A stretch of DNA of 50,755 bases from a virus (lineage: Duplodnaviria > Caudoviricetes). Shown in pieces: positions 1,569 through 34,660 of this stretch (its first letter is position 1; every line of letters begins with the position of its first letter). The stretch covers positions 1 through 50,755 of the IMG/VR virus record IMGVR_UViG_3300037195_001443. The stretch is one strand, 5' to 3'. The notes beneath the pieces were generated by a model. The model was not told the origin of the DNA, did no database searches, and worked only from the letters and a program-made list of their open reading frames with translations. The translations under genes were made by a program, and so were the position numbers.

Positions 1569-2599
1569 AACAAAGAAAGAAGCCGCCAAAAATAGAAATT
1601 ATCCCGACGGAGTTTATTGAAATGATGATGGTGGATAAACCTGAATATACTCCAGACATGTTAGCTGCAATGTTTGGAGTATCTAAAAGGACAATTCGTT
1701 ATTGGAAGGAGACAGTAAGAACAGAAGTTGGTTTCCAAAGAGAAATAGCTATGCCTGATAGTATAGATATAGATGAGTTGGTAAATGAAAGAACAAGGAA
1801 ATTTGAGCGTAAAGGAATACGCAAGAAAAATGAAAAACTTATTGGTATAAAAATTATGAATGATGGTCCTATAGGCATTGCTCATTTTGGCGATCCTCAT
1901 ATTGATGATGATGGTACTGATATATCTCTTCTTTTAAAACATGCTGATTTAGTGGCAGAAACAGAAGGTATGTATGCTGGCAATGTTGGAGATATACAGA
2001 ATAATTGGATAGGAAGACTGGGGCGTCTATATGGAGAACAGTCTACATCTGCAAAGGAAAGTTGGAGATTAACTGAACATTTTATACGGAAAGTTTCATG
2101 GTTATATATATGTGGCGGGAATCATGATGCTTGGGTAGGTAGTGGTGATCCGCTGGAGTATATTATTGGACAGCCAACTGTATATAACATGTATCAAGTC
2201 AGATTAAATTTAATATTTCCAAATGGTAAACAAGTTAGGGTTAATTGCAGACATGATTTTAAAGGTCATAGTCAATATAATACTGCTCATGGTCTTACAA
2301 AGGCTGCTATGTTTGGGTGGCGGGACCATATTCTTACTGCTGGGCATAAGCATGTAAGCGGTTATCAAGTAGTTAAGGACCCTATGAGTGGATTAATTAC
2401 TCATGCTATACGTTGTTCCAGCTATAAGACTCATGATAGATATGCTGAAGAAATGGGTTTGGCTGATCAGAGCATATTTATGTGTCCAGTCACTATTATA
2501 GATCCTCAGTATGAGGATAATGATCCGCGTTTGGTTACTGTTGTTTTTGATCCTTATGAGGGGGCTGATTATTTAACCTGGAAAAGAGGCAAGAAGTAG
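1565..2599 (+). CDS. Calcineurin-like metallophosphoesterase with N-terminal HTH
   Basis: GDPH, GD, GNHD, H and GHKH motifs in canonical order; LAAMFGVSKRTIRYW is HTH-like. Confidence 0.85.
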   Translation: MKQRKKPPKIEIIPTEFIEMMMVDKPEYTPDMLAAMFGVSKRTIRYWKETVRTEVGFQREIAMPDSIDIDELVNERTRKFERKGIRKKNEKLIGIKIMNDGPIGIAHFGDPHIDDDGTDISLLLKHADLVAETEGMYAGNVGDIQNNWIGRLGRLYGEQSTSAKESWRLTEHFIRKVSWLYICGGNHDAWVGSGDPLEYIIGQPTVYNMYQVRLNLIFPNGKQVRVNCRHDFKGHSQYNTAHGLTKAAMFGWRDHILTAGHKHVSGYQVVKDPMSGLITHAIRCSSYKTHDRYAEEMGLADQSIFMCPVTIIDPQYEDNDPRLVTVVFDPYEGADYLTWKRGKK

Positions 2600-11900: not shown

Positions 11901-14900
11901 GAGACAGAAGAAGCCCCAGTGCAAGATGATGATGGTGCAGTAAAACGTTATGAAAAAATGTCGAGTTTTAATCTTACGCTTGAAGATGTAAAGGCTGATT
12001 ATAAAGACATATATAAAAAAGAATTGGAAAAAGGGGAGATAACCCAAGAAGAAGTAGATCGAATGGCTAAGGGTCACTATGAAGAAGTTCAAGAAGAATT
12101 AAAAGTATATAAAGAGAATCCATTAAAATATTTAGAGAATGAATTAGAAAGTTGGTCTTTTTACCAAGAAAAGAACAAGGATGAAGATTATTCCAGTAAT
12201 ATTGAAATTGTAAAAAATGCTATAGCAGAGCTTAAAAAAACTAAGACGGCACTTCCTGCTGAAGATGTGCCAGGAAATGCTGTTGAGTTAGATAAAGACT
12301 ATATTAAGAAAGCAATGGCAAAAGCAGGGAAAGGTAAGAAAAGAGGAAAAAAAGGAAAAAAGGGGAAAGGAAATCTTAGACCAGATGAAAAAGGCAATAT
12401 TGCCAACAATACAACTGGTGGAGTATTAGGAAGTCTTTTAGAAGATACCGATAGAAATGATTCAAAAGTATCAATGTCTGAAGAAGGGGAAGTAACCCAT
12501 TTAATAACTGGAAAGGCTAAGAAGAAAGTAGATAGGTTTTTTGAAGCAACCTGGGCGCATGTGAAAAAGGCTAAGGGTTTGACCGATATGCAGTTCAGAT
12601 CATATTTTGATGAAATGCAACCCTATTTTGATAAAACTCCTTTTGGAATAAATTTTAGACAATGGGGCGAGCATAAGATTGCTGGCGGAGTTGGACAGTA
12701 TGTTTCCGAGGTTATTGGCACTATTAGGCGTGCTGGTGGCAATTTAATGGGGATAGGTGAGTATAATGCTATAAATGCTGTGTTACAGGAAGATTTCTAT
12801 GATGCTATTGAGTTTGCAGAAGGATTAAATGTTCTTGAAAGTGAAATAGAGCAGGGCGGTATGGATGTTAAGAGCTATTCCAAGATTGCTAAAACCTTTT
12901 TTCAAAAGTATGCGTTTAATATTACTCCAACAAAATTGAGGTATATGTGGAAGACTGCTGAACAGTATGCAAATGATTCGCGATATACTCCTAGTCAATC
13001 ATATATTAGATGGCTTGATGGAATATCTTCTCATGAATTTCTTGCAAATGATAGAGGTGAAAGTGTAAGTGAGTTTATAAGTAGAAATCAAAGAGGCAGG
13101 GAGTTTTTAAAAAGGTTCTGGGTTTCTATACATCCTGATAATGTTGGAACTGCCAATAAAGGTAAAAAGGGTGAAATAGTTGAATGGGAAGCTGCGTATC
13201 ATCCGCCTATTTCTGGCGATCCTGAATTAATAGGGACCAAAGAGGCTGAGGAGTCTATAAAAAAGTTTAGAGCTACTAAAGAAGAAAGTCTGGATGGGTC
13301 CAGCAGACCTGAAGTTGGCACTAAGAGATTGTTTACTCGTTTTATGCCAGATATGCCTTTTTCAATAATGAGCGTAAAAGACCTTTTTGATATATCTATG
13401 GGTTTTAAGGGTTTTTGGAAAGGGCCTATTAGAAAGAAGGTTTATAATTTTATGACCAACCCGCAAATGCTCAATTTTTACAAGTTTAGATTTATAAAGA
13501 AAGGGTTGGTTCCGCTGGCAAGTAGAGGTGAGAATGGGAGAATGATTTTTACTTCTGTTGATAAAGATATTGAATCTGTTTCATCTAATAAAGATGATCT
13601 TGCAGATTATCTTTGGTATGAATTAAAAGATCAAGGTTATTGGGATATAGAAAATAGTAATGAACCAGAAGATATAGCTAGAAGAGAGAAAATTGAGAAT
13701 CACTTTAAAAATATTGAGAGTAAAAAGAATCTGGATGAAGCTGAACAATGGATGCTCAGAAATGTATTTGATGGAAATTATGTAAAATATCGCCAGCATT
13801 GGATTGCTAGGCATAATGCTTTTGTTCGCTTGTTCGGTACAGAATATATTTATATGAAACCGTCTGAGTTGATGTATAGAATAAAGGTCCCCTTTACTCC
13901 AGTATTTACAAGTCCTACTTTACCTGACAGGAAAGTTATGTACTTTAAAACTGGCGGTGCCAAGATAAGATATTATTATGAAGGGAAGATGGTACAGGAA
14001 AGGGATCTTGTTCAGGATTTGGATGGAAAAATGCAGTATATAGGAGATGGGCAAACATTAACTTCTGAAATTGTATTTGTTGAAGAATATCCAGAGCATT
14101 TTGGAGCGCATTCAAACTCTAAACGGGCTAAAACAGTACATTATAATAATGATGGAAGGAATAATATTCATATAGGCAAGCATCAGGAAATGACTCTTGA
14201 TATTAATAGGGATGAAACTGCTGATATTGTTGATTCTGATGGGAATGTTATTGCTGTTTTTAAGAGAGATACTAATGGAAATCTAAATATCTATCATCCA
14301 AATGATACTACAGAAGGTAATCATATACATTATTTAATGAGCGATGATGAGGCAAAGACTCCTGAGTTACGTAAAGGCAGTCCTTATAATGAGGTTGTTG
14401 AACTTCCTGGAAAAAGTGTTGGAATGGTGCTTTATACTCCAAATAATATGAAAACAGTCAGTCAGTTCTCTGCCCAGTTATCTTATCATTTTGATGATCT
14501 AGGTTTTCAGGAATTGTTAATGAAGGAGTTTGTATTAGGTGAAGAACATTATTTTTCTCCTAAGAATATATGGAATAGGCTTCTTAATTATAATAAGAGT
14601 GCTGAAGGAATTAATGGTCTTATTAGTGAATTTGCCTTAAAGCATTTTGATGTTATGCCTCAGAATATAGAAGAGCTTGGTAAGCTTGGTGCTGGTAGAC
14701 ATCCTACTACAATGAGTTTCTTAAGAGAAGTGTTAAGAAGTAAAATGCTAAAACCAATTGCTGATTTTAAGATGCGTGGGACATATGGGGATTTTCGTGC
14801 TGATTATAGGGGTAGAGTATCAGATGATGAAGTTATAATTGGGTCAGGGAAGTCTCTTGTAAACTTTGTTATTGAGCAAATGGGTGCAAAGAAAAAGGTA

Positions 14901-16580
14901 TATAACAGCTGGGGTCATAAACTTGAGGAGATGAATCGCTGGCTGGCTAATAATAATCTTCGTGTAATGATAGTAAGGCATCCAGTAGCATCCAGTATGG
15001 GTTTTGGGGTATATAGGGTTAAGGAAATAGATTCTAAGATTGGTGATTCTTTTATAGTGAGTCCTAAAGAGGTTAAGGAAAGATTTGAGGGCGATCAGGA
15101 TCATGATACTGGACATATTGTATTTCTTACTAATGATATGGCAAATCAATTGCAAAGTTATCAGCAAAAAACAAGAGGTTTAAATCTTCAAAGATTTGAA
15201 AGAAGGGAAAGAAATCCTGACATTGCCAGCTTAGCATGGGGGATAGATTTAATTAGGGAAATGACTTATGGTGAGAAAGCTATTGGTGAGGTAGCTAATG
15301 TTGGCAGATTTGCTGGATTATTGAATCAGATGATGTCAGTAGATGATGGATTTAAGTTTAAAGATGGTGCTGGGAATGAAACAGAAATTAAGGTAAGAAG
15401 GCTTGATGATGTTGTTGAGGACCATGATATGCGACTTAAGACAGGTGGTCATTTTAAAGGGACATTAAGAGAATTGTTAAGAATATATCTACAGGCAGCA
15501 GTTGATCATCCTAAAGTATTATTATTAAAGGATTGGAATTATACTCAGGCAAAACTTTATTCAATGGTATTTTATGATACAGCCCAGGCTCACCGCAATC
15601 TTGATATGGAGAGTGATGGTACAGTAAATGCAGATGGTGTAAAAATAATTAGAACTTTAAATGCTGGATTTATTAAGCCAATCTTGAAGATCAATTCTAA
15701 AGTAGATAATCAAAGAGATGCGGTTACTGGTTCAATAAATTTTAAAGATATATTTGATTTATCTTCTGATTATCATGCATTTGTTCTGGATAGAAATGGG
15801 GTAGTCGCTCAAGAAATGAGTGGATTTAAAAAGAGATGGGAAGCTAAAATGGCTAATTATGGAAAAGATGCTGATTATTTTGAAAATTATATGGAATTAA
15901 GTGATGTGAATATATCGGCAGGTAAATATCCAATTTCTTTACAGGAAATGATTACTGTGGCGTTTGATCAAATATTGACCACTTCCAACACTCCAAGAGA
16001 TCGCTGGTTTGACGTTCCTCATGATGTTAGTAGTGCTGTTCATCCAGTTGCAGTTAAAGACATTACCGAAATGGTTCTTCCAGAAATAAGTAATATAGAT
16101 CAGGACACTAATTGGCGTCATGCTCTTGGATATGCACAGCAAATGCAGAATGAATTGTATGCGATGGTTAATAAAATGGAAAGAACTGGCAGAAAGGAAA
16201 TGCCGTTTATTGATAAATTAAATCCTAAGACATGGGATTATGCTCCAGAGTTTATTGAGTTCTTTGAGAAATGGTCTAAAATATTTGATAAATTAGATCC
16301 GATACAGAGAAAGGTTGCGACCATTGCATTTTTAAATGGAATGGTAATAGAAAGCAATGTTACTGGTAAGAGAAACTCTAGAAAAGATTTAAGAATGATA
16401 CCTCCAATAAAAGAGGAAGGTTCAACTACTCTGGACCCAGATATAATGAGTATGTATTTTGAAAGATATAATGAAGTACTTGATAATATTTATTCAGATA
16501 AAACTCTTCTGAAAAAATATAAGAAGATGGGTAAATTTCGTTCTATTAAAAAATTAAAGAAGGCATTTGGTTGTGGGTAA
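8943..16580 (+). CDS. Giant internal virion protein containing a single-chain two-barrel (DPBB) RNA polymerase; putative virion RNAP
   Basis: Ordered motifs YIGDGQTLTS (D1702), GKHQE (K1746), DDEAK (K1805), VMIVRHP (R2012), FEGDQDHDTGHIVF (D2051/2053/2055), AIGEVAN and LQAAVDHPK (D2188), collinear with the beta/beta', QDE-1/RDR and crAss-like RNAP cores. Confidence 0.85.
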   Translation: MPLLPPVAQKYSWHPLLRSLGPELPEDINNSDNEYFQVQFDSGFGWGEGEDRFNLWENYLTGVNHIVKNDHGADFSENLNSTSGFTLNRVKASEDINIYNNLYSVVKNNMERNTNWLQNVPSVRRDQTIKYWTNRLFSAQKHVNEMIPMDQVSDEAKDALNDWTNQYFGAMESLIYDTSVAEYNQFRDAKFKHGHALSEGFVQFKSGIAEGLPALLDKDFVSPVWHNWTEGIKKEAEQLSRTRAGGIYEMTTEDVWNSDNTDAWDVLATVWSHAVTSAPQQIPSAVSSVIALSSKSSPAGWALSGLGMIGALGTGHVQEAGGFSQDMQSEYNTLRSNAINDKIAVNKGEMPEKDFRSLYGLQNGKTADELNDEEILDMSRSLARNYSNYATGLEVLNTVGDIALGRHIALARQAMGQAPEIAAKSFFKAFWKKPFIKDISLESTGEGLTELLQETVSEYKKHTALPDYDMSTIQILESGAIGAGYGASFGGIHQLIDRPDTPKPSSAEAQARVSERLDKFRHKEVDDAIIVGLHVSPATWMEDVGREYDMSIEEVEARAAELNLNQIDISRKSAARRYKNSKKDLFSVFPVTQEEGYESPFKKKDLKSDGLDFLDPDYDPTMDVDNPDHSSGLDESLYSEIQIYKHERLQFEEELRVINEALKNPDPNVPGNTRPELEAAKADLLKRIDSLNKIISGGAIGNKKRRANNVKKKAKKSDSAGVVGERVTLKTPKLNNTKGEIIAIDKKNPNLLHVQTARGIKKILASNVVFKNETDAIKAWRKKSKKDKKKSGDNYQLKNNLITALKESGLDDSVFSKASVDELIAIGKELPKDKRSPRLQAILGKKVTKRKAPSKPGLSKDEKEDLKLLKAELKNVEGELSKPNIKKKRKKALENSKKLILDGIEKLEGKAPTPSPVTNINPETGKPFTRVTGIIDAFVHTTDPEEEARETDLNTLHGIKDKPGIPKENRDIYNRVFDERMEELTGETEEAPVQDDDGAVKRYEKMSSFNLTLEDVKADYKDIYKKELEKGEITQEEVDRMAKGHYEEVQEELKVYKENPLKYLENELESWSFYQEKNKDEDYSSNIEIVKNAIAELKKTKTALPAEDVPGNAVELDKDYIKKAMAKAGKGKKRGKKGKKGKGNLRPDEKGNIANNTTGGVLGSLLEDTDRNDSKVSMSEEGEVTHLITGKAKKKVDRFFEATWAHVKKAKGLTDMQFRSYFDEMQPYFDKTPFGINFRQWGEHKIAGGVGQYVSEVIGTIRRAGGNLMGIGEYNAINAVLQEDFYDAIEFAEGLNVLESEIEQGGMDVKSYSKIAKTFFQKYAFNITPTKLRYMWKTAEQYANDSRYTPSQSYIRWLDGISSHEFLANDRGESVSEFISRNQRGREFLKRFWVSIHPDNVGTANKGKKGEIVEWEAAYHPPISGDPELIGTKEAEESIKKFRATKEESLDGSSRPEVGTKRLFTRFMPDMPFSIMSVKDLFDISMGFKGFWKGPIRKKVYNFMTNPQMLNFYKFRFIKKGLVPLASRGENGRMIFTSVDKDIESVSSNKDDLADYLWYELKDQGYWDIENSNEPEDIARREKIENHFKNIESKKNLDEAEQWMLRNVFDGNYVKYRQHWIARHNAFVRLFGTEYIYMKPSELMYRIKVPFTPVFTSPTLPDRKVMYFKTGGAKIRYYYEGKMVQERDLVQDLDGKMQYIGDGQTLTSEIVFVEEYPEHFGAHSNSKRAKTVHYNNDGRNNIHIGKHQEMTLDINRDETADIVDSDGNVIAVFKRDTNGNLNIYHPNDTTEGNHIHYLMSDDEAKTPELRKGSPYNEVVELPGKSVGMVLYTPNNMKTVSQFSAQLSYHFDDLGFQELLMKEFVLGEEHYFSPKNIWNRLLNYNKSAEGINGLISEFALKHFDVMPQNIEELGKLGAGRHPTTMSFLREVLRSKMLKPIADFKMRGTYGDFRADYRGRVSDDEVIIGSGKSLVNFVIEQMGAKKKVYNSWGHKLEEMNRWLANNNLRVMIVRHPVASSMGFGVYRVKEIDSKIGDSFIVSPKEVKERFEGDQDHDTGHIVFLTNDMANQLQSYQQKTRGLNLQRFERRERNPDIASLAWGIDLIREMTYGEKAIGEVANVGRFAGLLNQMMSVDDGFKFKDGAGNETEIKVRRLDDVVEDHDMRLKTGGHFKGTLRELLRIYLQAAVDHPKVLLLKDWNYTQAKLYSMVFYDTAQAHRNLDMESDGTVNADGVKIIRTLNAGFIKPILKINSKVDNQRDAVTGSINFKDIFDLSSDYHAFVLDRNGVVAQEMSGFKKRWEAKMANYGKDADYFENYMELSDVNISAGKYPISLQEMITVAFDQILTTSNTPRDRWFDVPHDVSSAVHPVAVKDITEMVLPEISNIDQDTNWRHALGYAQQMQNELYAMVNKMERTGRKEMPFIDKLNPKTWDYAPEFIEFFEKWSKIFDKLDPIQRKVATIAFLNGMVIESNVTGKRNSRKDLRMIPPIKEEGSTTLDPDIMSMYFERYNEVLDNIYSDKTLLKKYKKMGKFRSIKKLKKAFGCG

Positions 16581-19500
16581 ATGTAAAAGTTTAAAAGATT
16601 CACAGATAGAATTTGCTGAGTCTATAGAGGCTGATTCTAAATATGTAGAAGGCATACGTGATGAATATGGTGCGGATGGTGGTAAGGAAGAGTTTGCTGG
16701 ATTCTTTGGCGCACTGACTGATACGATAAATGGGATAATAACAGGAACGGTAAAGGCTAATTCTCCTGCAGAGCAATGGCATATAAGGATGGAAACTATT
16801 GATAGAATGGCTGATAGCTATTTTAGCAATAAAGATGATAAAGAAAAGGCGAGTATTATTACGAAGTTAATGGCTTTGTCTGCTGAAGATCCTGGAATGA
16901 AAGCTGCTATAGATAATCAATTACAGGAAAATATTCTTTCATTACCCTATGAAGATCTTTCTAGAAGAGGAACTCCAGTAAAGTTTCATGAAGGTACTGG
17001 TAAGCCTATATTAGCTACATTGCCGTTACCAGAGCTTCGTAATATTATGAGATGGGTTCAAAACGACTTACAGCCAGATGGCCCCAATTATGGAAGGCTT
17101 GGAAATGCTCTATATTTACAATTTTCACTATCTAAAACTGCATTGGGGAGAATACCTAGTAAGGCTGTAATTAAATTTAAAAAAACAATAGCGGATTGGA
17201 GAAATAGATTAAATGGAGAGGTAAATACTTATTTGTCGGGTATTGATGTATCAGAGGATGAAGATAATTTGCTTGTGCATCCTGAAACTGGTGTAAAGCA
17301 GATAAACGTATTAAAAAGAAGTAAAGCTGGCATTAATCAAGTTATGACTAGTCTTAGAGAGGAAATGGCTCAAGGTTTAATGAATAATGGTCAGAATATG
17401 ATTTCTGAACCTGATGAAGTATTCATTATACTTCGTGACTTGATGTCTGGTAAAGCATTTTTCCGACAAGATGGTGATCATTTTGGTGAGGTCTGGATGT
17501 ATGAAAGAGAGGCACCTGTAGGCACATATGAAAATGGTGATTATATATTTTCATGGGTAGGTAAAAAATTTAATATGAAGAAGGAAAAAGAATATGGTAC
17601 AAGTAATTATGTTTCTCCCTATATAACAAGTACTGGTAAACATTTAAAGTTTCAGCTAAAATATAAGAATGGGCCTATGGCTGAACATATGGATTCTATA
17701 ACTCAGCATATTGATCGTATATTGCTGGAATTTGGTGAAAATACTGTCGCTCAATTAGATATGGCTCAGAAAAGATGGAATGCTTTAAATATAACGCAAG
17801 AAGGGGACAAATTTGTAGTTAATGGTAAAGAGATTAATATTCCAGGAAGTATGGTTGGTGAACTTTCTCAGTTAATAGAAACTGATGTTGGTGACGTAAA
17901 AGGAACAATGGAAAGACTTGATGAGGAAGGTAGACCAGTAACTACAGAAAAAAGAAATCAATTACTTAGACTTAAAGAAAAAATATCTCCAGAGCGTAAT
18001 GATTTAGTAGATAAAGATGGTAATAAGATGAAGACTAAGCATTATAAAAGATATTCTCCTATATTGTATTTTAATCATCGTATACCAGTTATTATAGAAG
18101 AAGTTTTAAATAATCTTAATGCGGAAATAGAACTTCTTCAGGAAGGTGCTGATTTTAGATCAGGTAATAGTTTAAAAGACAGGCGAGCCAATACTGACCG
18201 CTTGATGGAATATAGAAAATATAGAGATGATATACAGGCTCAAATGGATAAAAATCTGGGATTGCTGGAGGATGCTCCTTATGAAAGTGATGACGAGCCT
18301 AAAGTATTTGCACCATTTGAGAAACATTTTAAAAAGGTAACTCACTTAGTGCCGTATGAAGAACGTAGAGCAGATTCTGGAGTCTATCAGGAATATTTTC
18401 GCAGAGTATCAACTAATATTATTAGAATGAATATGATGATGGATGCTATTGATGGATTGGTTTCTATAGATAGTCCAATTATGCAGGAATATATATGGAA
18501 TAAGTATAAGGTAGCATTTGGTCAAAGCGATGCTCACGGACGAATGGGCGGATTTAGATTTTCCACTCAGGATTTAGCTAAAGTATTACCATATGTTAAT
18601 GCGGATCAATTAAAAAAGATTCTGACAAATATAAAACAATGGCAGGTATTTGCTACATTAAGCGGACCATTGACTGGTGCTATGAATTTAGCAGCTATGA
18701 TAAGTAAAATACATGAGGTTGGTGTAGACTCATGGCATGATGCTTTTATTACATCTCAAAAACCAGAAAGCGCAGAAAGAATATTGAGAAGTGGTGTATT
18801 GTCATTTCAGGATATAATTGAGAATCATTTAATGATTCATGCAACAGAACAAGAAATTTTATCTTATAGAGAAACAGTAAATGAAATACGGGAAAAAGTA
18901 GCAAAATATAAGAATGAAAATGATCCAGAAGCTATTGCTCAAATGGATAGGATATTATCCAGGGTAAAACAAACAAAGAAAATAACTTGGCTTCGTAGTC
19001 TTGCTACTTGGTCTATAAAAGGTGAATTTCTCAAGTTACCACATATAGATCGTGGTCCTACACAATTTATAAAAAAGATTGCTAACCTAAAAAGGTATAT
19101 ATCTATAGATTGGTCAGAAAAAATAATAAGGTCAGTATCTTTTCAAATAGGTGCTAAACAATCAGTTAGGGCTGGTGCAGCTACAAGTATGGATGATCCT
19201 GTTGCTATAGAATGGGGTAAGAGATATATGGATTTGACTGATTACCATCTTGGCGCAGAGAATATGGGTGATTGGTTTGGGAATGATGCTATGCAGTTAT
19301 TGAACCATGTTCGTATATGGAGCAATCAAAGATTTGCTTATGGTAAGGATTCTGTGAGAGATGCTTTAAGAAGTGCCAGCGTGCCTATACAGGACCCAAA
19401 GAACTTTGCAGAAAAAATGGTTAATAGTTCTTCAAGAGGTTATGAGTTTACTAAGGCATTATTTAAGGTGGGAATGCCATTTGGTTTAATGGGGGCTGGC

Positions 19501-20172
19501 GTAGTAGGAGGGGCCGCGGTTGCATTGCCACTTGGAACGCTTGCTGGAATTGCTGGAGGTGTAGGAGGTTTATATGGGGGATATAAATTTCAGGATATGT
19601 TTAAAGGGATGGAAAGAGTAAAAGCGATGAGAATAGGCAATCAGAAGATGGCAAAAGGTGCGCAGATGTTTATGTTTCATGGCTTTATGTCTGCATTATA
19701 TGATTTAGTAATATTTAATTTTGACGCTGATTGGGGATCTATGGCTGGTTTAGTTACTGCAATAAAGAGGGCGGGTTGGAAAACTGGGGCTCATAAGGCA
19801 GGACCATCATTTGCACCGCCAGAAATGCGACTTGCATTGGCTTCAATATCTTTATTATTGAAGTGGAAAGATGATGAAGAGGAGATAGATGGGTATGATT
19901 ATGCTAAGTTGATGGGGAGTTATTGGGGTATAGGGTCTATGTTTATAGGTTATCTTATATTAAATATATTATATAAACCTAATAGGATGATGAAAAACGC
20001 TTATAAAAAAGACGAAGACTTTGAACGTAAGGCTACTCAATTATATTCACCGCCATGGATACCACCAGAATATGTAATGGAAGCTAAAACAAAAGTGAAA
20101 AGTGAAATTAATTATCTTATAAATGAATTAACAAAGGCTGATAATCCACATAAGATTGGTGATTTTAGATAA
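16567..20172 (+). CDS. Large internal virion (ejection) protein with C-terminal membrane segments
   Basis: 1201 aa, helical, with a long Gly-rich hydrophobic stretch (GLMGAGVVGGAAVALPLGTLAGIAGGVGGLYGG); last gene of the late arm; true start may be GTG at 16573. Confidence 0.65.
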   Translation: MVVGKCKSLKDSQIEFAESIEADSKYVEGIRDEYGADGGKEEFAGFFGALTDTINGIITGTVKANSPAEQWHIRMETIDRMADSYFSNKDDKEKASIITKLMALSAEDPGMKAAIDNQLQENILSLPYEDLSRRGTPVKFHEGTGKPILATLPLPELRNIMRWVQNDLQPDGPNYGRLGNALYLQFSLSKTALGRIPSKAVIKFKKTIADWRNRLNGEVNTYLSGIDVSEDEDNLLVHPETGVKQINVLKRSKAGINQVMTSLREEMAQGLMNNGQNMISEPDEVFIILRDLMSGKAFFRQDGDHFGEVWMYEREAPVGTYENGDYIFSWVGKKFNMKKEKEYGTSNYVSPYITSTGKHLKFQLKYKNGPMAEHMDSITQHIDRILLEFGENTVAQLDMAQKRWNALNITQEGDKFVVNGKEINIPGSMVGELSQLIETDVGDVKGTMERLDEEGRPVTTEKRNQLLRLKEKISPERNDLVDKDGNKMKTKHYKRYSPILYFNHRIPVIIEEVLNNLNAEIELLQEGADFRSGNSLKDRRANTDRLMEYRKYRDDIQAQMDKNLGLLEDAPYESDDEPKVFAPFEKHFKKVTHLVPYEERRADSGVYQEYFRRVSTNIIRMNMMMDAIDGLVSIDSPIMQEYIWNKYKVAFGQSDAHGRMGGFRFSTQDLAKVLPYVNADQLKKILTNIKQWQVFATLSGPLTGAMNLAAMISKIHEVGVDSWHDAFITSQKPESAERILRSGVLSFQDIIENHLMIHATEQEILSYRETVNEIREKVAKYKNENDPEAIAQMDRILSRVKQTKKITWLRSLATWSIKGEFLKLPHIDRGPTQFIKKIANLKRYISIDWSEKIIRSVSFQIGAKQSVRAGAATSMDDPVAIEWGKRYMDLTDYHLGAENMGDWFGNDAMQLLNHVRIWSNQRFAYGKDSVRDALRSASVPIQDPKNFAEKMVNSSSRGYEFTKALFKVGMPFGLMGAGVVGGAAVALPLGTLAGIAGGVGGLYGGYKFQDMFKGMERVKAMRIGNQKMAKGAQMFMFHGFMSALYDLVIFNFDADWGSMAGLVTAIKRAGWKTGAHKAGPSFAPPEMRLALASISLLLKWKDDEEEIDGYDYAKLMGSYWGIGSMFIGYLILNILYKPNRMMKNAYKKDEDFERKATQLYSPPWIPPEYVMEAKTKVKSEINYLINELTKADNPHKIGDFR

Positions 20173-23230: not shown

Positions 23231-23333
23231 ATGAGCCTGTAAATAAAGCATACCAAAAGTTTTCAAAAACGTACTTAGTTTAGCCAACCAGTTCATTTAT
23301 TAACTTATGTATTCCACTATTTTACAGGCTCAT
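23231..23333 (-). other. Intergenic element closed by a 13-bp perfect inverted repeat (candidate structured RNA or processing site)
   Basis: ATGAGCCTGTAAA (23231-23243) / TTTACAGGCTCAT (23321-23333). Confidence 0.55.
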
Positions 23334-28260: not shown

Positions 28261-28534
28261 TGAGTCCTCCTTCTATAATTTCATCAAATTCATTGGATGT
28301 TGATGCTTCCAGCAATCTATAAATATGTCCAGCTCTTATTAAAGTACATAAAGCCATTGCCGCGTCTTCATTTATATAATAATCGTAATCTAAATGATTA
28401 GAATCTGCAATTTTTCCATCAGCATTGTAATTAGACCTATGACCACTACCATCAAAACATCTTCTTCCAAATTGCATTCTTACAATTTTATCAGGTGGTA
28501 TTTCTTTACCACTTATTTCACATATTACTCTCAT
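28250..28534 (-). CDS. Hypothetical protein
   Basis: AAGGGAG RBS; operon packing. Confidence 0.6.
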   Translation of the reverse strand: MRVICEISGKEIPPDKIVRMQFGRRCFDGSGHRSNYNADGKIADSNHLDYDYYINEDAAMALCTLIRAGHIYRLLEASTSNEFDEIIEGGLNAS

Positions 28535-28902
28535 TATTCACTCCCTTTTAGTTTATCGTTATGAAAATCTTCTACCACTTGAGAATCGTAATCAATTGTA
28601 GCCTGAATATATCTTTTCTGGTTTCTCTGGCGTACCTCATATTTTTTACCACGCAAAGATGGATGCACTTCCTGAACTTTTCTTCTGGCTCTATTTATAC
28701 TGCTAATAGAGGGAAGATTCTCTCTTTCTAATTTTGAAAAGAAATCAGTGACTGACATCCCTTTTATATTACCAGTTGGATGAAAGTCTTTGTCAATAAT
28801 AGTATAAAGTCTATATGCTAAATAATTATCACTGTCTCTTGTTTCTGGTCTATGTTCAAGTATATCTTTAATTAAATCAAATAGTTTTACTGTCATAGCC
28901 AT
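28534..28902 (-). CDS. Phage hypothetical protein (possible DNA-binding)
   Basis: AAGGGAG RBS; PETRDSD…SINRARRKVQE..P.LRG. Confidence 0.65.
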   Translation of the reverse strand: MAMTVKLFDLIKDILEHRPETRDSDNYLAYRLYTIIDKDFHPTGNIKGMSVTDFFSKLERENLPSISSINRARRKVQEVHPSLRGKKYEVRQRNQKRYIQATIDYDSQVVEDFHNDKLKGSE

Positions 28903-28945
28903 AATATTATGTCTCCCTTAAGTGTTGAAATTACTGAATTTACGG

Positions 28946-29325
28946 AAATTAGCCTATCTAATTTATTGCCCAACCATGATGTTATTAATTATATCTTGGG
29001 TAGATTATAACTCACAACACCACTTCGGTTGGGCAATTTAGTGTGGATAGTACAACGTGGTCGCAGAGTATCTTTTCAACTCAGACCATATGCATATGCC
29101 ACCACACTAATTTAAATGCTGGCTTTATATTCTTTACTTTTTATAATTGAAAGAATGTAGTAGCCTTTCACTACAAAGTGTCTTATAGTCAGTTGACCTC
29201 GAGTCCATTGACATAAGCCAGCATAAATATGGGGGCGAGCTAGGTATTCCACATACCGATTAAGGGATAAGATAGGTAATATCCCGAGAGGAAGGCCCGC
29301 CCCCCTTACGCATAGGGAGATGCGT
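28946..29325 (-). ncRNA. Array of six abutting stem-closed modules; candidate structured ncRNA cluster
   Basis: Inverted repeats at 28946-28964, 28965-29037, 29038-29110, 29116-29224, 29231-29304 and 29308-29325; internal helices extend through G-U pairs on the - strand. Confidence 0.6.
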
Positions 29326-30974
29326 TATAAATTATAGCGAAGTATTTCGCTATTGTCCGTGACCTCCCTTATCCGCTTGTAGAAGAGATCACTCTTCTTT
29401 TTGTTGAATATTCCGCACAATTCAGGTGGAAATTCGTCCAATGTTACAAGAAATGCAACTAAATCAGCCTTTTTCTTAGTAACACCATTTAAAGAACCAT
29501 TATGAGGAACCATGCAAGTTTGAAGTTGAGCAGTAGTGAAGCAATTGATCATGTCTTCTCTGGGAATGAGATTATTCCTCCAATAATTAAGAATACGATT
29601 CTTAAAATTGATGGTTTTCTCTTTATTATATCCAGTAGCCTTTTCAACTTCATCAAAAGAAGCATGAACAGATAACCAGTAATTCAATATGCCCTGTGTA
29701 ACAACAAAACAATAATCTTTTACAAGTTCATCAAATCCTACCAAAGTACGTATTTTATCAGTAGGCTTATCACCCTGCATAAAAACATTATTGTTCCAGG
29801 TATCAATACTTCCAAGAGCAACACGATCTTTCATATACTGATATGAAAATACCTTCATAAATAGATTACTGTCATTGTTTATTTCATCAATAACATCCTC
29901 TAAATATTTCTGCCCGATAGCCCTGGCAAATTTGGTATCAACTCGTACATATAGTTTATCAACAGGATCAGTACCTTCAACAATCTTATCATTCTTCTTT
30001 ATAGGTTTCTGAAATACCAAACGATCCATATTCCCATTATGTGCTGTATATTGCTTAATAAAACGTACAGGGTCTTTGTACGTTACAAGCTTATGCAACC
30101 GCAAATCATGGCGTTCTTCATATTTGATGTTTTCATTAACCTTCATATCAGCAAGAGCATTCATTAAATCAGAATATTTTTGCTCTAAGCAATATTCCAG
30201 AAAATCCTTGTCCTCATAGACAAGATCATCAAATAATACCAAAGATGACTGAAGTACAACAGGATATTTTTCAGCATAAGCAGAAAGCTCCTTCTTTGTA
30301 AACAATTCCATCAATGTTTGATCTGGTTTACCGCTACGAAGCCAATGCCAATGAAAATCGTCCAGCATTATTTCATTATGAAGATTTTTGGGGTCTATTT
30401 CATAATATTTGATATAATCATCAAGACATTTATCCTGATAAGCAATATCAAAACCAACAATACCTTCAATATCTTCAAGACGATCTTCATCAATAATATC
30501 TGGATGCATCAATCTGTCACAAAGATTAGCCAGCTCTACCAGCATTCTTGTATGAGGCATAGTAAAGCCAAATGCAACTGATATATCTTTGATAGATGTA
30601 TAATTAGCAATAACCTTCTTAACAGCCAGGACTTTTTCATATAATGACATGGAAACACGGTAATTGTTAGCATGATACATCATTTCAGTAAGTCTATCTG
30701 GTTTATCAATGATACGCGCAGGTATGAATTCATGTTTTAAGTCTTTATAAGCAGCTACACGCTGATGACCATCAATTAAAACATATTCATCGCCATTCTT
30801 ATAAACTATTACAGAGTGTAAAACACCCTCAAGCAATTTAATAGAATTACGCAGTTGTTTATACTCATCAAGAGTTTTATCAACTTTCTTTTTACGAATA
30901 TTGCCGTTAGAAACAATGCTACTAATAGCAAGTGACTTGGCAGTATCGTCTACATATTCACTTATGAATACCAT
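29325..30974 (-). CDS. ParB/Srx N-terminal domain protein
   Basis: QLRNSIKLLEGVLHSVIV…YVLIDGHQRVAAY…IPARI…ANNYRVSMS followed by an HTH-like segment. Confidence 0.85.
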   Translation of the reverse strand: MVFISEYVDDTAKSLAISSIVSNGNIRKKKVDKTLDEYKQLRNSIKLLEGVLHSVIVYKNGDEYVLIDGHQRVAAYKDLKHEFIPARIIDKPDRLTEMMYHANNYRVSMSLYEKVLAVKKVIANYTSIKDISVAFGFTMPHTRMLVELANLCDRLMHPDIIDEDRLEDIEGIVGFDIAYQDKCLDDYIKYYEIDPKNLHNEIMLDDFHWHWLRSGKPDQTLMELFTKKELSAYAEKYPVVLQSSLVLFDDLVYEDKDFLEYCLEQKYSDLMNALADMKVNENIKYEERHDLRLHKLVTYKDPVRFIKQYTAHNGNMDRLVFQKPIKKNDKIVEGTDPVDKLYVRVDTKFARAIGQKYLEDVIDEINNDSNLFMKVFSYQYMKDRVALGSIDTWNNNVFMQGDKPTDKIRTLVGFDELVKDYCFVVTQGILNYWLSVHASFDEVEKATGYNKEKTINFKNRILNYWRNNLIPREDMINCFTTAQLQTCMVPHNGSLNGVTKKKADLVAFLVTLDEFPPELCGIFNKKKSDLFYKRIREVTDNSEILRYNL

Positions 30975-33340: not shown

Positions 33341-33565
33341 GATTGATTCTCCCATTTATTTCTTTGATTAATGAGATATTGTTTTGTATCAGATGTTATT
33401 TCAGGAGTATCAACATCATCTTCATCAGAGATTGTATCTTCACATGTACAAACATATCTTGTTCCATCTGGATCACAGTTTAAACACTGACAAGGATTGC
33501 CAGAACCATATTGCTCCTCAAAACAAGCAGGACATAAATTTGTATAAATAACTTTGTCAGTCATG
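33327..33565. repeat. 15-bp direct repeat covering the starts of two adjacent genes
   Basis: ACTTTGTCAGTCATG at 33327-33341 and 33551-33565. Confidence 0.85.
33337..33564 (-). CDS. Small Cys-rich acidic early protein
   Basis: CPAC…CQCLNC…CTC. Confidence 0.6.
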   Translation of the reverse strand: MTDKVIYTNLCPACFEEQYGSGNPCQCLNCDPDGTRYVCTCEDTISDEDDVDTPEITSDTKQYLINQRNKWENQS

Positions 33566-33716
33566 CCGATACCTCAACACGCTTTGTCAACTTCTTTGAC
33601 AACTTAGCATCACGTGATTTAACAGTATCATCGCCAGAAACTTTGATAGTAACACGATGTACAGAACCATATGGATCAATGCAGAAATATGTGCGAGTAT
33701 TTGTTAATTTGGTCAT
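33561..33716 (-). CDS. Small basic early protein
   Basis: AGGGAG RBS supports a start at 33716 (MTKLTNTRT). Confidence 0.55.
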   Translation of the reverse strand: MTKLTNTRTYFCIDPYGSVHRVTIKVSGDDTVKSRDAKLSKKLTKRVEVSA

Positions 33717-33867
33717 AATAAGACTCCCTATGTGTTTAAATGTGTGTTTGTGGAAAGTGTGTAAATAATGGCTATGTATCATTCAACATGAATTAAGTGA
33801 CTATCACGGTTGTATCAGAGCGTGCTGTCACACCAAGTGTTATAAAATGCTTATAGTTCACAAGCAA

Positions 33868-33898
33868 TGAACCATGCCCGCGGATGCGGGCAGGTTCA
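33868..33898 (-). terminator. Strong GC-rich hairpin after the first early gene (terminator, processing site or hairpin promoter)
   Basis: TGAACC-A-TGCCCGC GGAT GCGGGCA GGTTCA; only a weak U-tract. Confidence 0.5.
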
Positions 33899-33913
33899 GT
33901 GGTGGGGCGGGGA

Positions 33914-34195
33914 TCAGAAGATCAGGTCACCAGTGGCAGGGTTCATCTGGCAAGACTTGGGAACATGTTTCAGGATCTTCTTCTCAGACCAGGAGTTCCA
34001 CTCGATGTCCAGGAAGGCCACGGTGATGGCATCTTCAGGGAGTTCGGTGTCAGAGTCAGAGCCACGCTTGGTGAGGTAGGTCATGGGCTTGCCCTTGAGC
34101 GTCTCGGTGGAATGTGACTGAAAGGAGTTGTTCGAGTAGTACCACCGCATGGTCTTGAGGGATTGTTGCAGGTAGACAGTGATTGATTTAGGCAT
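33914..34195 (-). CDS. First early-arm gene, hypothetical, anomalously GC-rich
   Basis: GGAGG RBS 5 nt before ATG 34195 (MPKSITVY); C/G-ending codons. Confidence 0.7.
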   Translation of the reverse strand: MPKSITVYLQQSLKTMRWYYSNNSFQSHSTETLKGKPMTYLTKRGSDSDTELPEDAITVAFLDIEWNSWSEKKILKHVPKSCQMNPATGDLIF

Positions 34196-34243
34196 AGTAA
34201 CCTCCATGGTTTAACCTAGTTGTTGGATTCAATGAAACTTAAC

Positions 34244-34269
34244 GGTGACGCGAATCCGAGATCGTCACC
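34244..34269. promoter_or_regulatory. Hairpin upstream of the first early gene
   Basis: GGTGACG-N12-CGTCACC. Confidence 0.4.
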
Positions 34270-34402
34270 ATACGGGGACCCGACACAATATATAGGTGTA
34301 TGACATTTTGTTACAATTTTTGAAGTTTGGTTGTCGTCTAGATTTTTATAGGTGATAGTTATGAGGAACAGAGGTTGTTCAACATTGGTTTAGCAGTCTA
34401 TC

Positions 34403-34504
34403 AGGACTGTTAGGACCGTTAGGACCGTTTTTTAGTAAACTATTATATATACGTATACGTGAGGGAGTTTATAGAAAAAGGGGTTTAACAGTCCTACTGT
34501 CCTG
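34403..34504. repeat. Iteron-like direct and inverted repeats around a palindrome; candidate replication origin or packaging site
   Basis: AGGACYGTT x3 (34403-34429); inverted copy AACAGTCCT (34487-34495) plus degenerate ACTGTCCTG; central TAAACT…ACGTATACGT…AGTTTA. Confidence 0.6.
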
Positions 34505-34604
34505 GTAAAAAAAGTTTACTGGGAGGTGTAATTATATGTTAACTATTGAAGGAAATAGAATTCTGGTATATTAGTGTGTGTGTGTATGTCTATTTCCTGC
34601 TGAG

Positions 34605-34633
34605 AAGCTAAGGTTCAAATGGTCATTTGTCAA
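34605..34633 (-). promoter_or_regulatory. Sigma70-type promoter pointing toward the early arm, overlapped by a palindrome
   Basis: TTGACA-17 bp-TAGCTT on the - strand; CAAATG-GT-CATTTG at 34616-34629. Confidence 0.55.
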
Positions 34634-34660
34634 GAGAAAAATAATTTGTAAGTTAGAGCC

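What the first reader, a model, noticed from the sequence alone, without database searches (positions are those of the whole stretch)
28946..29325. Array of six abutting stem-closed RNA modules in the early arm
The 380-nt ORF-free gap is tiled by inverted repeats with 0-6 nt between them: AAATTAG/CTAATTT, ATTGCCCAACC/GGTTGGGCAAT, TTAGTGTGG/CCACACTAA, ATGCTGGCTT/AAGCCAGCAT, GGGGGCG/CGCCCCC and ACGCAT/ATGCGT. The four large modules are 73-109 nt and unrelated in sequence. On the - strand, 28965-29037 extends into a long hairpin (GUGGUGUUGU pairs with AUAACAUCAU using three G-U pairs that would be A-C on the + strand). 29116-29224 and 29231-29304 are multibranched, and the latter ends in CCCCCA. 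The G-U bias points to selection at the RNA level. Inference: a polycistronic cassette of tRNA-sized small RNAs (decoys, antisense or anti-defence RNAs) excised from the early transcript.
Basis: partly seen in the sequence, partly recalled or inferred. Interest (0 to 1): 0.75.

Follow-up and report, generated by a model that had tools for sequence, protein, structure and literature searches.

The report
Swappable folded RNA modules between phage genes
A 422-base gene-free gap in an uncultured marine phage holds four back-to-back, self-closing folded modules that are not tRNAs; at least one is a cassette that different phages share and lose, but its role is unknown.

Summary
The gap 28903-29324 lies between two minus-strand early genes, a ParB-like 549-aa gene and a 122-aa ORF. 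It contains four abutting stem-closed modules: A 28965-29037, B 29035-29113, C 29116-29224 and D 29231-29304. This tiling was reached by 2 of 3000 shuffles and 0 of 989 other genome windows. The gap folds at z about -6 to -7, against -0.6 to -1.9 for flanking coding sequence. The two small end hairpins are at chance level.

The tRNA reading fails: ARAGORN and Rfam find nothing. The cassette idea gains support. Five relatives checked have gaps of about 117-191 nt with one GC-rich hairpin where D sits, so A-C are lineage-specific additions. Module C recurs at 97% identity in another marine phage contig whose flanks are unrelated. It also recurs in a third context, and it is mostly deleted (92 nt) in phage variants from two metagenomes. 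The variants' breakpoints fall at module C's edges. The few substitutions mostly keep pairing on the sense strand.

My best reading is exchangeable, accessory structured-RNA cassettes carried in the early transcript. Transcription, excision and function are not shown. No homologues of A, B or D were found.

The parts
29325..30974 (-). Upstream gene: 549-aa protein with a ParB-like N-terminal domain. Its stop codon lies 1 nt before the first hairpin.
   Evidence: ORF. PHROG ParB-like families at E 2e-13. Pfam ParB_N is below its cut-off, at 20.1 bits against 26.3.
29309..29323 (-). Small 6-bp hairpin right after the stop codon. Its loop CUCCCU is complementary to the ribosome-binding site of the next gene.
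   Evidence: Sequence. Hairpins of this size are at chance frequency. The long-range pairing is examined.
29231..29305 (-). Module D: a three-way junction closed by a 10-bp G/C-rich stem. It occupies the position of the single GC-rich hairpin that follows the ParB-like gene in relatives.
   Evidence: -33.0 kcal/mol, z -3.1. Relatives' hairpins. Variants 29295 G>A and 29297 C>T keep pairing on the minus strand.
29116..29224 (-). Module C: a 109-nt four-way junction with a 10-bp closing stem and three hairpins. The shared cassette spans about 29107/29108 to 29225/29228.
   Evidence: Copies in L182 (97% over 109 nt, flanks unrelated) and L187. A 92-nt deletion variant and a copy with foreign flanks appear in metagenome contigs. 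Pair counts.
29035..29113 (-). Module B: a branched domain of about 79 nt closed by a 12-nt stem with one mismatch.
   Evidence: -24.7 kcal/mol, z -3.9 on the minus strand. No homologue found.
28965..29037 (-). Module A: a 73-nt near-perfect long hairpin with 31 pairs on the minus strand.
   Evidence: -33.7 against -22.6 kcal/mol; z -8.3 against -4.2. No homologue found.
28903..28964 (-). Leader of the 122-aa ORF: a small A/T hairpin (28946-28964), a stretch weakly alignable to relatives' leaders, and the ribosome-binding site AAGGGAG.
   Evidence: local alignment score reached by 2 of 500, 21 of 500 and 79 of 500 shuffles against L114, L087 and L088. The motif is not repeated elsewhere in the genome.
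28534..28902 (-). Downstream gene: 122-aa ORF of unknown function, with relatives at 31-56% best-segment identity (31-46% where most of the protein aligns) in 73 viral contigs.

Best explanation
The gap is a lineage-specific tract of four self-contained structured RNA domains on the sense (minus) strand of the leftward early operon, between the stop codon of the ParB-like gene and the leader of the next gene. D is the local version of a GC-rich hairpin that follows this gene in relatives. A, B and C are accessory cassettes added between that hairpin and the leader.

Each cassette is an autonomous RNA unit of about 75-120 nt whose own closing stem lets it fold independently of its neighbours. 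That is why such units can be swapped, stacked or deleted without harm. I think they most likely act as RNAs in their own right, whether as stable domains of the early transcript or as pieces released at the A/U-rich 0-6 nt linkers by host RNases. Their role would be accessory, on the host-interaction side, rather than core to the phage.

Shown: the repeats, the folding excess, the absence of A-C from relatives, and for C its horizontal sharing, its loss and the breakpoints at its edges. Inferred: transcription of the tract, the acting strand, any processing, and any function.
For: (1) Tiling and folding are beyond chance.

(2) The tract is not conserved coding sequence. The only minus-strand ORF of 30 aa or more is a 46-aa GTG ORF. 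It is broken by the 92-nt deletion variant, and a 1-nt insertion variant breaks a plus-strand ORF.

(3) Five relatives' loci, from four records, have gaps of 117-134 nt (191 in L113) with one hairpin of about 10-16 bp after the stop and then the leader. TerL identity of 81-83% was measured for the records of L087/L112 and L088.

(4) Module C sits at 97.2% identity over 109 nt (95.9% over 121 nt) in L182, where nothing else aligns. It lies in the same orientation relative to the flanking genes and again in an intergenic tract with two other stem-closed stretches, upstream of an ERF recombinase gene. Those two neighbours fold only weakly (z -1.2 to -2.4).

(5) L187 shares 97% identity with L182 over 528 nt and diverges 7 nt past module C.

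(6) In metagenome contigs the joint 29116>29209 appears in two DNA runs from two studies. A roughly 90% copy of 29107-29225 carries foreign flanks on both sides. Other contigs break at 29224/29225.

(7) Substitutions on the sense strand: the closing stem of C changes U-A to U-G, hairpin 1 changes C-G to U-G, and hairpin 3 changes U-A to C-G on both sides while its loop shrinks from 14 to 7 nt. In D, G-U becomes A-U and G-C becomes G-U.

(8) MFE is lower on the sense strand for A, B, D and the separate module E, strongly so for A and E.

(9) A relative (L113) has an extra stem-closed stretch of about 56 nt in the same gap, downstream of the leader motif.

(10) Precedent: long early intergenic regions of phage phi14:2 are transcribed more strongly than most genes and persist (10.1101/2020.03.07.982082, passages read).
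Against: There is no proof of transcription. The three RNA-library contigs (29198-29473, 29225-29340 and 29519-29669) could come from contaminating DNA and carry no strand or end information.

Covariation is thin. There are 3 sequences of C, 0 double-sided changes in aligned columns, and every shuffle equals the observed score. The one compensatory pair lies in columns the aligner did not match. One substitution breaks a pair on the sense strand and forms a wobble on the other. A variant copy in run X9 also changes the outermost pair of hairpin 3 to a mismatch.

z-scores do not separate the strands for B, C, D or the whole gap.

A, B and D have no homologue anywhere I searched. The cassette behaviour is therefore shown for C only.

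The covariance model of C matched only L187's own record among 74 viral records.

C is dispensable in the phage variants found in two samples.
Confidence: 0.4

Rival explanations
1. The tract is generic cis-acting mRNA architecture with no autonomous function. The hairpins would protect the 3' end of the ParB-like message, provide RNase III or RNase E cutting sites, or control translation of the next gene. Stem-closed insertions would simply be the only kind tolerated in such a spacer.
For: The tract starts 1 nt after a stop codon and ends at a ribosome-binding-site leader. Relatives keep a hairpin in the same place, and its stem is maintained across different sequences. A is a 31-pair irregular hairpin, the general shape of RNase III substrates (the substrate shape is recalled, not tested). 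In the whole-gap fold an 11-bp helix joins the loop just after the stop codon (29320-29305) to the ribosome-binding site (28922-12), enclosing all four modules. That segment is the best partner of the site in the whole gap. Equal or better pairing occurred in 23 of 1000 and 40 of 2000 shuffles, and in 7 of 1318 windows of the early arm.
Against: A single hairpin of about 10-16 bp suffices in relatives. A 109-nt four-way junction kept at 97% identity between phages with unrelated flanks is more than a generic spacer needs. The long-range helix is not conserved: 0 of 5 relatives show significant pairing between the first 25 nt and the ribosome-binding site. No intrinsic-terminator-like site lies in the gap on the sense strand.
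Confidence: 0.3
2. The units are selfish or passive DNA-level palindromic elements, like MITEs or REP elements, or recombination scars. The closing stems would be terminal inverted repeats, and any RNA structure would be incidental.
For: The arms are perfect or near-perfect at the DNA level. There is presence/absence polymorphism, and copies sit in unrelated contexts. z-scores are equally good on both strands for most modules.
Against: Each unit is single-copy in this genome and the units are unrelated to one another. No target-site duplication is visible at C in three contexts. The 92-nt deletion is not a precise excision: it leaves one arm behind and has 2 nt of microhomology. L187 carries a C.A mismatch in the arms at the DNA level that is a G-U pair in sense RNA. 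The interior helices, not only the termini, are maintained. C has the same orientation relative to genes in both independent contexts with known genes. A 24-nt core of C has no exact match in the representative genomes of 185,579 prokaryote species.
Confidence: 0.15
3. One reading: degenerate tRNA genes or tRNA-like decoys that are processed like a tRNA precursor.
For: Module lengths of 73-109 nt and spacers of 0-6 nt resemble phage tRNA arrays. D has a 7-bp G/C stem followed by A. In 5 of 50 loci from related and other viral contigs there is a tRNA-Met in the leftward arm next to long ORF-free tracts.
Against: ARAGORN finds 0 genes by default and at 80% thresholds. At 60% it gives 3 calls against 80 in 40 control pieces. 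Rfam finds no tRNA, tmRNA or tRNA-like family even at E up to 10. A is a plain hairpin, D has two internal arms, and no arm has a 7-nt anticodon-like or T-loop-like loop. The relatives' tRNA-Met is in a different part of the genome.
Confidence: 0.03
4. The arrangement is a chance cluster of inverted repeats in non-coding filler with no function.
For: Genome-wide inverted-repeat counts are at chance. The loose tiling criterion is reached by about 1-2% of controls. Most modules have no homologue.
Against: The stricter tiling criterion was reached by 2 of 3000 shuffles and 0 of 989 windows. The whole gap folds at z -6 to -7. The genome is tightly packed, with only six gaps of 120 nt or more. C is conserved across phages with its helices maintained.
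Confidence: 0.07

Closest known systems
Early intergenic long non-coding RNAs of Cellulophaga crAss-like phage phi14:2 (Drobysheva et al., preprint 10.1101/2020.03.07.982082; passages read)
   Same: Both are long protein-free tracts among the early genes of a marine phage. In phi14:2 they are transcribed in the gene direction, more strongly than most genes, and persist late in infection. Their function is unknown.
   Different: Those RNAs are defined by expression data and their structure is not described in the passages I read. Here there is structure and population data but no expression data. No sequence relationship was tested, because I held no phi14:2 sequence.
PeSL (promoter-early stem-loop) cassettes of T4-type phages (Arbiol et al. 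2010, PMC2839356; abstract and section 13 read)
   Same: Both are small intergenic stem-loop-bearing units in the plastic early regions of a phage, lying between a stop codon and the next ribosome-binding site. Both are associated with insertion, deletion and replacement differences between related phages.
   Different: PeSLs are about 50 copies per genome of one repeated motif, built around a sigma-70 promoter with one simple G/C stem-loop, and recombination between copies does the shuffling. Here the units are single-copy, mutually unrelated, 73-109 nt and branched. No repeated promoter motif exists.
Intercistronic RNase III processing hairpins of phage T7 early mRNA, and the processing stalks of rRNA operons (recalled knowledge, no paper read)
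   Same: Both are irregular hairpins of about 20-30 bp between cistrons of an early polycistronic transcript. Module A has this shape, and an enclosing long-range helix is predicted around the whole tract.
   Different: T7 has one site per gene junction, not four different abutting domains. Cleavage is untested here. B, C and D are branched rather than plain duplexes.
Phage tRNA gene arrays and the stable small RNAs encoded among them in T4 (recalled knowledge)
   Same: Both are tightly abutted RNA units of about 75-110 nt, each closed by its own terminal stem, and variable between related phages.
   Different: No unit here has a cloverleaf or scores as a tRNA.
REP/BIME and MITE-type palindromic elements (recalled knowledge)
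   Same: Both are intergenic, closed by inverted repeats, polymorphic in presence, and found just after stop codons.
   Different: Those elements occur in many near-identical copies per genome. Here each unit is unique in the genome and has no target duplication.

Membership tests
tRNA / tRNA-like / tmRNA | Cloverleaf with a 7-bp acceptor stem, D arm, anticodon arm with a 7-nt loop, and T arm, detectable by ARAGORN or the Rfam models | tested here: not met
   ARAGORN found 0 genes in the window and 0 at 80% thresholds. At 60% it gave 3 calls in the gap against 80 in 40 control pieces. Rfam found none at gathering scores or at E up to 10.
Any Rfam 15 family (ribozymes, riboswitches, phage RNAs, Y RNAs, large ornate RNAs) | Covariance-model score at or above the family's gathering score | tested here: not met
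   There were 0 matches in the whole window. In 28700-29500 at E up to 10 there were only four matches at 16-20 bits against gathering scores of 37-49. L187 1-1400 gave 0 at E up to 1.
PeSL cassettes | One motif repeated many times in the genome | tested here: not met
   Each module matches only itself in the window. The leader motif occurs once.
PeSL cassettes | A strong sigma-70 promoter is part of the unit | tested here: inconclusive
   Six promoter-like sites lie in 28400-29800 against 6.5 +/- 3.0 in shuffles. One of them, matching 10 of 12 positions, ends at 29331, just before the tract.
PeSL cassettes | Sits at the breakpoints of differences between related phages | tested here: met
   Breakpoints lie at 29107/29108, 29224/29225 and 7 nt past C in L187.
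RNase III processing site | An irregular duplex of about two helical turns or more in an intercistronic position | tested here: met
   Module A has 31 pairs with small bulges. This feature is necessary for membership but not sufficient.
RNase III processing site | Cleavage by RNase III | not testable with these tools
   Only assembled contigs of RNA libraries were available. They show no RNA ends.
MITE / REP-like mobile palindromic element | Multiple copies per genome | tested here: not met
   Each unit is single-copy in the 50.8-kb genome. A 24-nt core of C has no exact match in the genomes of 185,579 species. The model of C matched 1 of 74 viral records, which was its own source.
MITE / REP-like mobile palindromic element | Target-site duplication flanking terminal inverted repeats | tested here: not met
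   Terminal repeats are present, but the flanks of C in the window, L182 and L187 show no direct repeat.
Intrinsic terminator | A G/C-rich hairpin with a short loop followed by a U tract on the sense strand | tested here: not met
   The two terminator-like sites found are on the plus strand and lie outside the gap.
Expressed early intergenic lncRNA (phi14:2 type) | Abundant, persistent sense transcript of the intergenic tract | not testable with these tools
   Contigs from two metatranscriptome runs cover 29198-29473 and 29225-29340. This does not show transcription.

The most novel reading that the evidence does not exclude
Marine phages may trade a pool of autonomous structured-RNA genes of about 75-120 nt. 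These would be new RNA classes, possibly protein-binding decoys or small ribozymes. They would move as stem-closed cassettes that can be stacked in any early intergenic slot because each folds independently of its neighbours. This tract would be one such stack, and module C one circulating family.
Probability: 0.25. Interest if true: 0.8.

Novelty: new variant of a known kind. Interest (0 to 1): 0.55.

Why it matters
Early regions of phages are where host-takeover and counter-defence functions concentrate, yet almost all attention goes to their proteins. If units like module C are RNA genes that circulate between unrelated phages, they would be an unannotated class of accessory genes. The stem-closed design would explain how non-coding functions can be shuffled as freely as small ORFs.

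Even under the plainer reading, the tract shows that intercistronic spacers of phage operons accept and lose folded domains at precise boundaries. That matters for annotation and for engineering phage operons.

Notes from other windows of this scan describe similar arrays in unrelated phages (these are unchecked AI notes). The pattern may therefore be general.

Tried and rejected
Searches for relatives of the tract:
- blastn of the gap against 50,697 GenBank phage records found no match.
- The ParB-like protein gave no pattern match in IMG/VR. Among 5.8 billion protein clusters it had only one homologue, at 96% identity on a 2450-bp contig I could not fetch. Among GenBank phages only the N-terminal domain matched, at 29-31% in 7 Gordonia phage records.
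- The Cas4-like neighbour gave no phage match.
- The metagenome scan with the ParB alignment returned one contig that covers only the gene's first 90 residues, not the tract.
- blastn of the gap against 25 related viral records gave only short A/T-rich matches, best E 0.0016.
- blastn of each module against all 190 loci found only C in L182. The L187 tract found nothing.

Exact-pattern scans:
- Closing-stem scans in IMG/VR for A and D hit only GC-rich coding sequence, which I rejected as chance. One of the two hits for C (L183) was also chance.
- Three of the five hits for the core of C were chance.
- An interior pattern of B gave 0 hits.
- The core of C gave 0 hits in prokaryote genomes.

Other checks:
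- The covariance model of C matched no other record among 74. L182's record was not held, so it was not searched.
- The idea that the leader is a repeated phage promoter was rejected because the motif occurs once.
- A 10-nt likeness of module B to a promoter-like motif of relatives was rejected because that motif is absent from the window.
- No homing endonuclease or RNA-handling enzyme lies near the tracts.
- Long gaps are not a feature of the downstream gene family. In 60 of 69 loci with a measurable gap it is 200 nt or less, and in 5 of 69 it is 300 nt or more (a crude ORF-based measure; 4 of 73 loci gave no value).
- Conservation of the long-range ribosome-binding-site pairing was not found in any of 5 relatives.
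- MAFFT misaligned the leaders, so I used pairwise local alignment instead.
- Parts of the stretch without contig cover in the laid runs say nothing.
- Earlier-findings look-ups by place and by sequence returned nothing.

Literature:
- Three full-text searches turned up no paper describing arrays of unrelated stem-closed RNA cassettes shared between phages.
- PMC10690425 (passages read) catalogues single candidate structured RNAs from IMG/VR and does not use the words tandem, array or adjacent. Its supplementary tables, which I could not open, might list one of these modules.

Full report
SETTING. The window is a complete IMG/VR virus record of 50,755 bp, estimated 93% complete. Runs that hold it are marine or seawater metagenomes. 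It is a tightly packed phage genome at about 31-44% G+C, with strong strand-linked GC skew. It has two rightward arms and one leftward arm from about 20.2 to 33.4 kb. The leftward arm carries a DnaB-like helicase, two ParB-like proteins, a Cas4-like exonuclease, DUF932 and a PDDEXK nuclease, so it is an early or replication arm. The finding lies in the gap 28903-29324 between the 549-aa ParB-like gene (29325-30974) and a 122-aa ORF (28534-28902), both on the minus strand. Only six gaps of 120 nt or more lack an ORF of 60 aa or more on the arm's coding strand. This is the second largest, after the 1.3-kb divergent control region.

THE OBSERVATION.
- Read on the minus strand from the stop codon, the order is: a 6-bp hairpin (29323-29309), D (29304-29231), C (29224-29116), B (29113-29035), A (29037-28965), a 7-bp A/T hairpin (28964-28946), and then about 45 nt of leader with the ribosome-binding site.
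- Spacers are 0-6 nt and A/U-rich.
- Each large module folds better than its shuffles on both strands (z -2.8 to -8.3).
- The whole gap folds at z -6.1 (minus) and -7.3 (plus), against -0.6 to -1.9 for equal-length coding flanks.
- The whole-gap minimum-energy fold keeps all four modules as separate domains on both strands.
- Four non-overlapping modules with 10-nt arms and at most one mismatch were reached by 2 of 3000 shuffles and 0 of 989 other windows. A looser rule gave 11 of 1000 and 16 of 989. Both rules were set after seeing the data.
- The two small end hairpins are no more than chance gives.
- The tract is also present in independent assemblies, so it is not an assembly artefact.

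NOT tRNAs AND NOT A KNOWN RNA FAMILY. ARAGORN finds nothing in the window. With thresholds lowered to 80% it still finds nothing in the gap. At 60% it makes 3 calls, against 80 in 40 control pieces of the same genome. Rfam 15 gives no match at gathering scores anywhere in the window. In 28700-29500 at E up to 10 it gives only four chance-level snoRNA or miRNA matches. A is a plain 31-pair hairpin, D is a three-way junction and C is a four-way junction with arms of 20-30 nt. None has tRNA-like loops.

WHAT RELATIVES SHOW. No close relative exists in GenBank phages or IMG/VR. The ParB-like protein has a single 96% homologue among 5.8 billion protein clusters.
- The large terminase finds at least 597 related viral contigs, the best 80 at 66-83% identity.
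- In 25 of the longer ones, a ParB-like homologue was found in 5, at only 27-41% identity. The early arm therefore evolves very fast.
- In five relatives' loci (L087/L112, L088, L109, L113, L114) the gap between this gene and the homologue of the 122-aa ORF is 117-134 nt (191 in L113). It consists of one GC-rich hairpin of about 10-16 bp soon after the stop codon, followed by a leader. TerL identity of 81-83% was measured for the records of L087/L112 and L088.
- The hairpin's stem is kept while its loop and sequence change.
- The last 50 nt before the window's ribosome-binding site align weakly to those leaders. The score was reached by 2 of 500, 21 of 500 and 79 of 500 shuffles.
- So D sits where relatives have their hairpin, and C, B and most of A lie between that hairpin and the leader as additions of the window's lineage.
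- One relative, L113, has its own extra stem-closed stretch of about 56 nt in the same gap, downstream of the leader motif.
- Across 69 loci of the downstream gene family with a measurable gap, 60 have 200 nt or less.

MODULE C IS A SHARED, LOSABLE CASSETTE. A scan of IMG/VR for C's two arms found contig L182.
- The only alignable DNA between L182 and the window is 121 nt at 95.9% identity (L182 5345-5465 against 29108-29228), or 97.2% over the 109-nt module.
- L182 is a different marine phage. Only scattered weak protein-level matches exist.
- There, C again lies in an intergenic tract on the gene strand, between a 92-aa ORF and an ERF recombinase gene. It is flanked by two other stem-closed stretches that fold only weakly (z -1.2 to -2.4; context).
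- A core-pattern scan added L187. L187 is 97% identical to L182 over 528 nt and diverges 7 nt beyond C, into a 730-nt ORF-free folded tract.
- Logan contigs of four runs were laid on 28300-29900. The joint 29116>29209 skips 92 nt, which is most of C, in two DNA runs from two studies. It has 2 nt of microhomology and leaves one arm of the stem behind.
- One contig carries a copy of 29107-29225 at about 90% identity, with unrelated sequence on both sides.
- Three further contigs break at 29224/29225. One of them, from an RNA library, continues from D into foreign sequence.
- The unit's boundaries are therefore the same in independent contexts, and the unit is dispensable.

WHICH STRAND, AND IS STRUCTURE SELECTED? 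Minimum free energy is lower on the sense strand for A (-33.7 against -22.6), B, D and a fifth module elsewhere (E, -30.1 against -20.0). It is slightly higher for C. z-scores separate the strands only for A.
- Among three sequences of C, 83 of 84 cells pair in my four-way-junction model. Two one-sided changes stay paired as G-U on the sense strand and would be A.C on the other strand. One change breaks a loop-closing pair on the sense strand and would be a wobble on the other.
- A seventh pair of hairpin 3 changes U-A to C-G on both sides in L187, while the loop shrinks from 14 to 7 nt. The aligner did not place those columns together, so the formal count shows no double-sided change, and the shuffles are uninformative with three sequences.
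- The indels and substitutions of the fourth variant of C also fall in hairpin 3. One of them turns its outermost pair into a mismatch.
- In D, the two variant positions seen in contigs (29295 G>A and 29297 C>T) turn G-C into G-U and G-U into A-U on the sense strand. The first would be a C.A mismatch on the other strand.
- Taken together this leans towards sense-strand RNA but is far from a statistical demonstration.

EXPRESSION. Contigs from two metatranscriptome runs cover 29198-29473, 29225-29340 and 29519-29669. Contigs cannot show strand, ends or level, and DNA carry-over is possible. I count this as no more than compatible.

MECHANISM. I commit to this reading. The tract is part of the leftward early transcript. 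D is the resident 3' hairpin of the ParB-like message. A-C are accessory structured-RNA cassettes acquired by exchange between phages. Their closing stems make them fold autonomously, so they can be stacked, swapped and deleted cleanly. They act as RNAs, either embedded in the transcript or released at the A/U-rich linkers. I put this at about 0.4.

RIVALS.
- The main rival, at about 0.3, is that the tract is generic mRNA architecture for end protection, RNase cutting or translational control. A point in its favour is an 11-bp helix predicted between the loop just after the stop codon and the ribosome-binding site of the next gene, which would enclose the whole array in one multiloop. That helix is only modestly beyond chance and is absent from 5 of 5 relatives.
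- A DNA-level palindromic-element reading, at about 0.15, fits the polymorphism. It does not fit the single-copy state, the lack of target duplications, the imprecise deletion, or the maintenance of inner helices.
- tRNA-like decoys (0.03) and chance (0.07) are unlikely.

COMPARISON AND NOVELTY. The nearest described things are as follows.
- The abundant early intergenic RNAs of phi14:2.
- The PeSL cassettes of T4-type phages.
- T7-type RNase III sites, phage tRNA arrays, and REP or MITE elements. These three comparisons rest on recalled knowledge.

The tract fails the defining features of PeSL (a repeated motif), of MITE/REP elements (copy number and target duplication), of tRNAs and of every Rfam family. 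It shares with PeSLs and tRNA arrays the habit of sitting at the breakpoints of phage mosaicism. Three literature searches found no description of unrelated stem-closed RNA cassettes shared between phages. Supplementary tables of the IMG/VR structured-RNA catalogue (PMC10690425) could not be opened and might contain a module. Unchecked notes from other windows of this scan describe similar arrays in other phages. I rate this a new variant of a known kind, with interest about 0.55.

LIMITS. Cassette behaviour is shown for C only. A, B and D have no homologue. Covariation rests on three to four sequences. No host is known. Transcription and processing are inferred.

Noticed in passing
window 23231-23333: A fifth stem-closed module (E) lies in another early-arm gap. 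It has 13-bp perfect arms and spans 103 nt. It folds at -30.1 kcal/mol on the sense strand against -20.0 on the other (z -4.8 and -4.0). It ends a few nt before the ribosome-binding site of the next gene. No homologue was found in the loci held.
   Followed up: partly
window 29320-29305 with 28922-28912: An 11-bp (7+4) long-range complement joins the hairpin loop just after the ParB-like stop codon to the ribosome-binding site of the 122-aa ORF. It encloses the whole array in the predicted fold. Duplex energies are -13.7 and -12.5 kcal/mol. Equal or better pairing occurred in 40 of 2000 and 23 of 1000 shuffles and in 7 of 1318 windows of the arm. It is not conserved in 5 of 5 relatives.
   Followed up: partly
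L113 about 2897-2952: Compared with its near relative L114, this contig has an extra stem-closed stretch of about 56 nt in the same ParB-to-ORF gap (gap of 191 nt against 134).
   Followed up: partly
L187 333-1062; L182 5238-5541: Other marine phage contigs carry ORF-free, heavily folded tracts of 304 nt and about 730 nt on the gene strand after a 92-aa ORF. Module C is one unit among several unrelated stem-closed units there. The L187 tract has no match in the loci held.
   Followed up: partly
L022 7075-7148, L038 7569-7637, L052 1462-1537, L070 7079-7152, L081 6138-6212: Five of 50 scanned loci, all terminase relatives at 67-69% identity, carry a tRNA-Met on the strand opposite the terminase. 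In L022 and L038 it is followed by long ORF-free sequence holding a shared promoter-like motif. The window has no tRNA and lacks that motif.
   Followed up: partly
window 33356-34660: This is a 1.3-kb ORF-poor divergent control region between the leftward and rightward arms. It has 10-bp inverted repeats at 34403-34495 and 34550-34598, and a stretch of about 55-62 nt conserved at 75-82% in three close relatives.
   Followed up: no
window 8943-16580, 16567-20172, 2599-5496: Three very large rightward ORFs (2545, 1201 and 965 aa) match no Pfam family. The 1201-aa and 965-aa ORFs also match no PHROG at E up to 1e-5; the 2545-aa ORF was not searched against PHROGs.
   Followed up: no
window 29325-30974 and relatives: The ParB-like protein is only 27-29% identical over long alignments (41% over a 62-residue fragment) in phages whose terminase is 81-83% identical. 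The early arm therefore diverges far faster than the structural arm.
   Followed up: no
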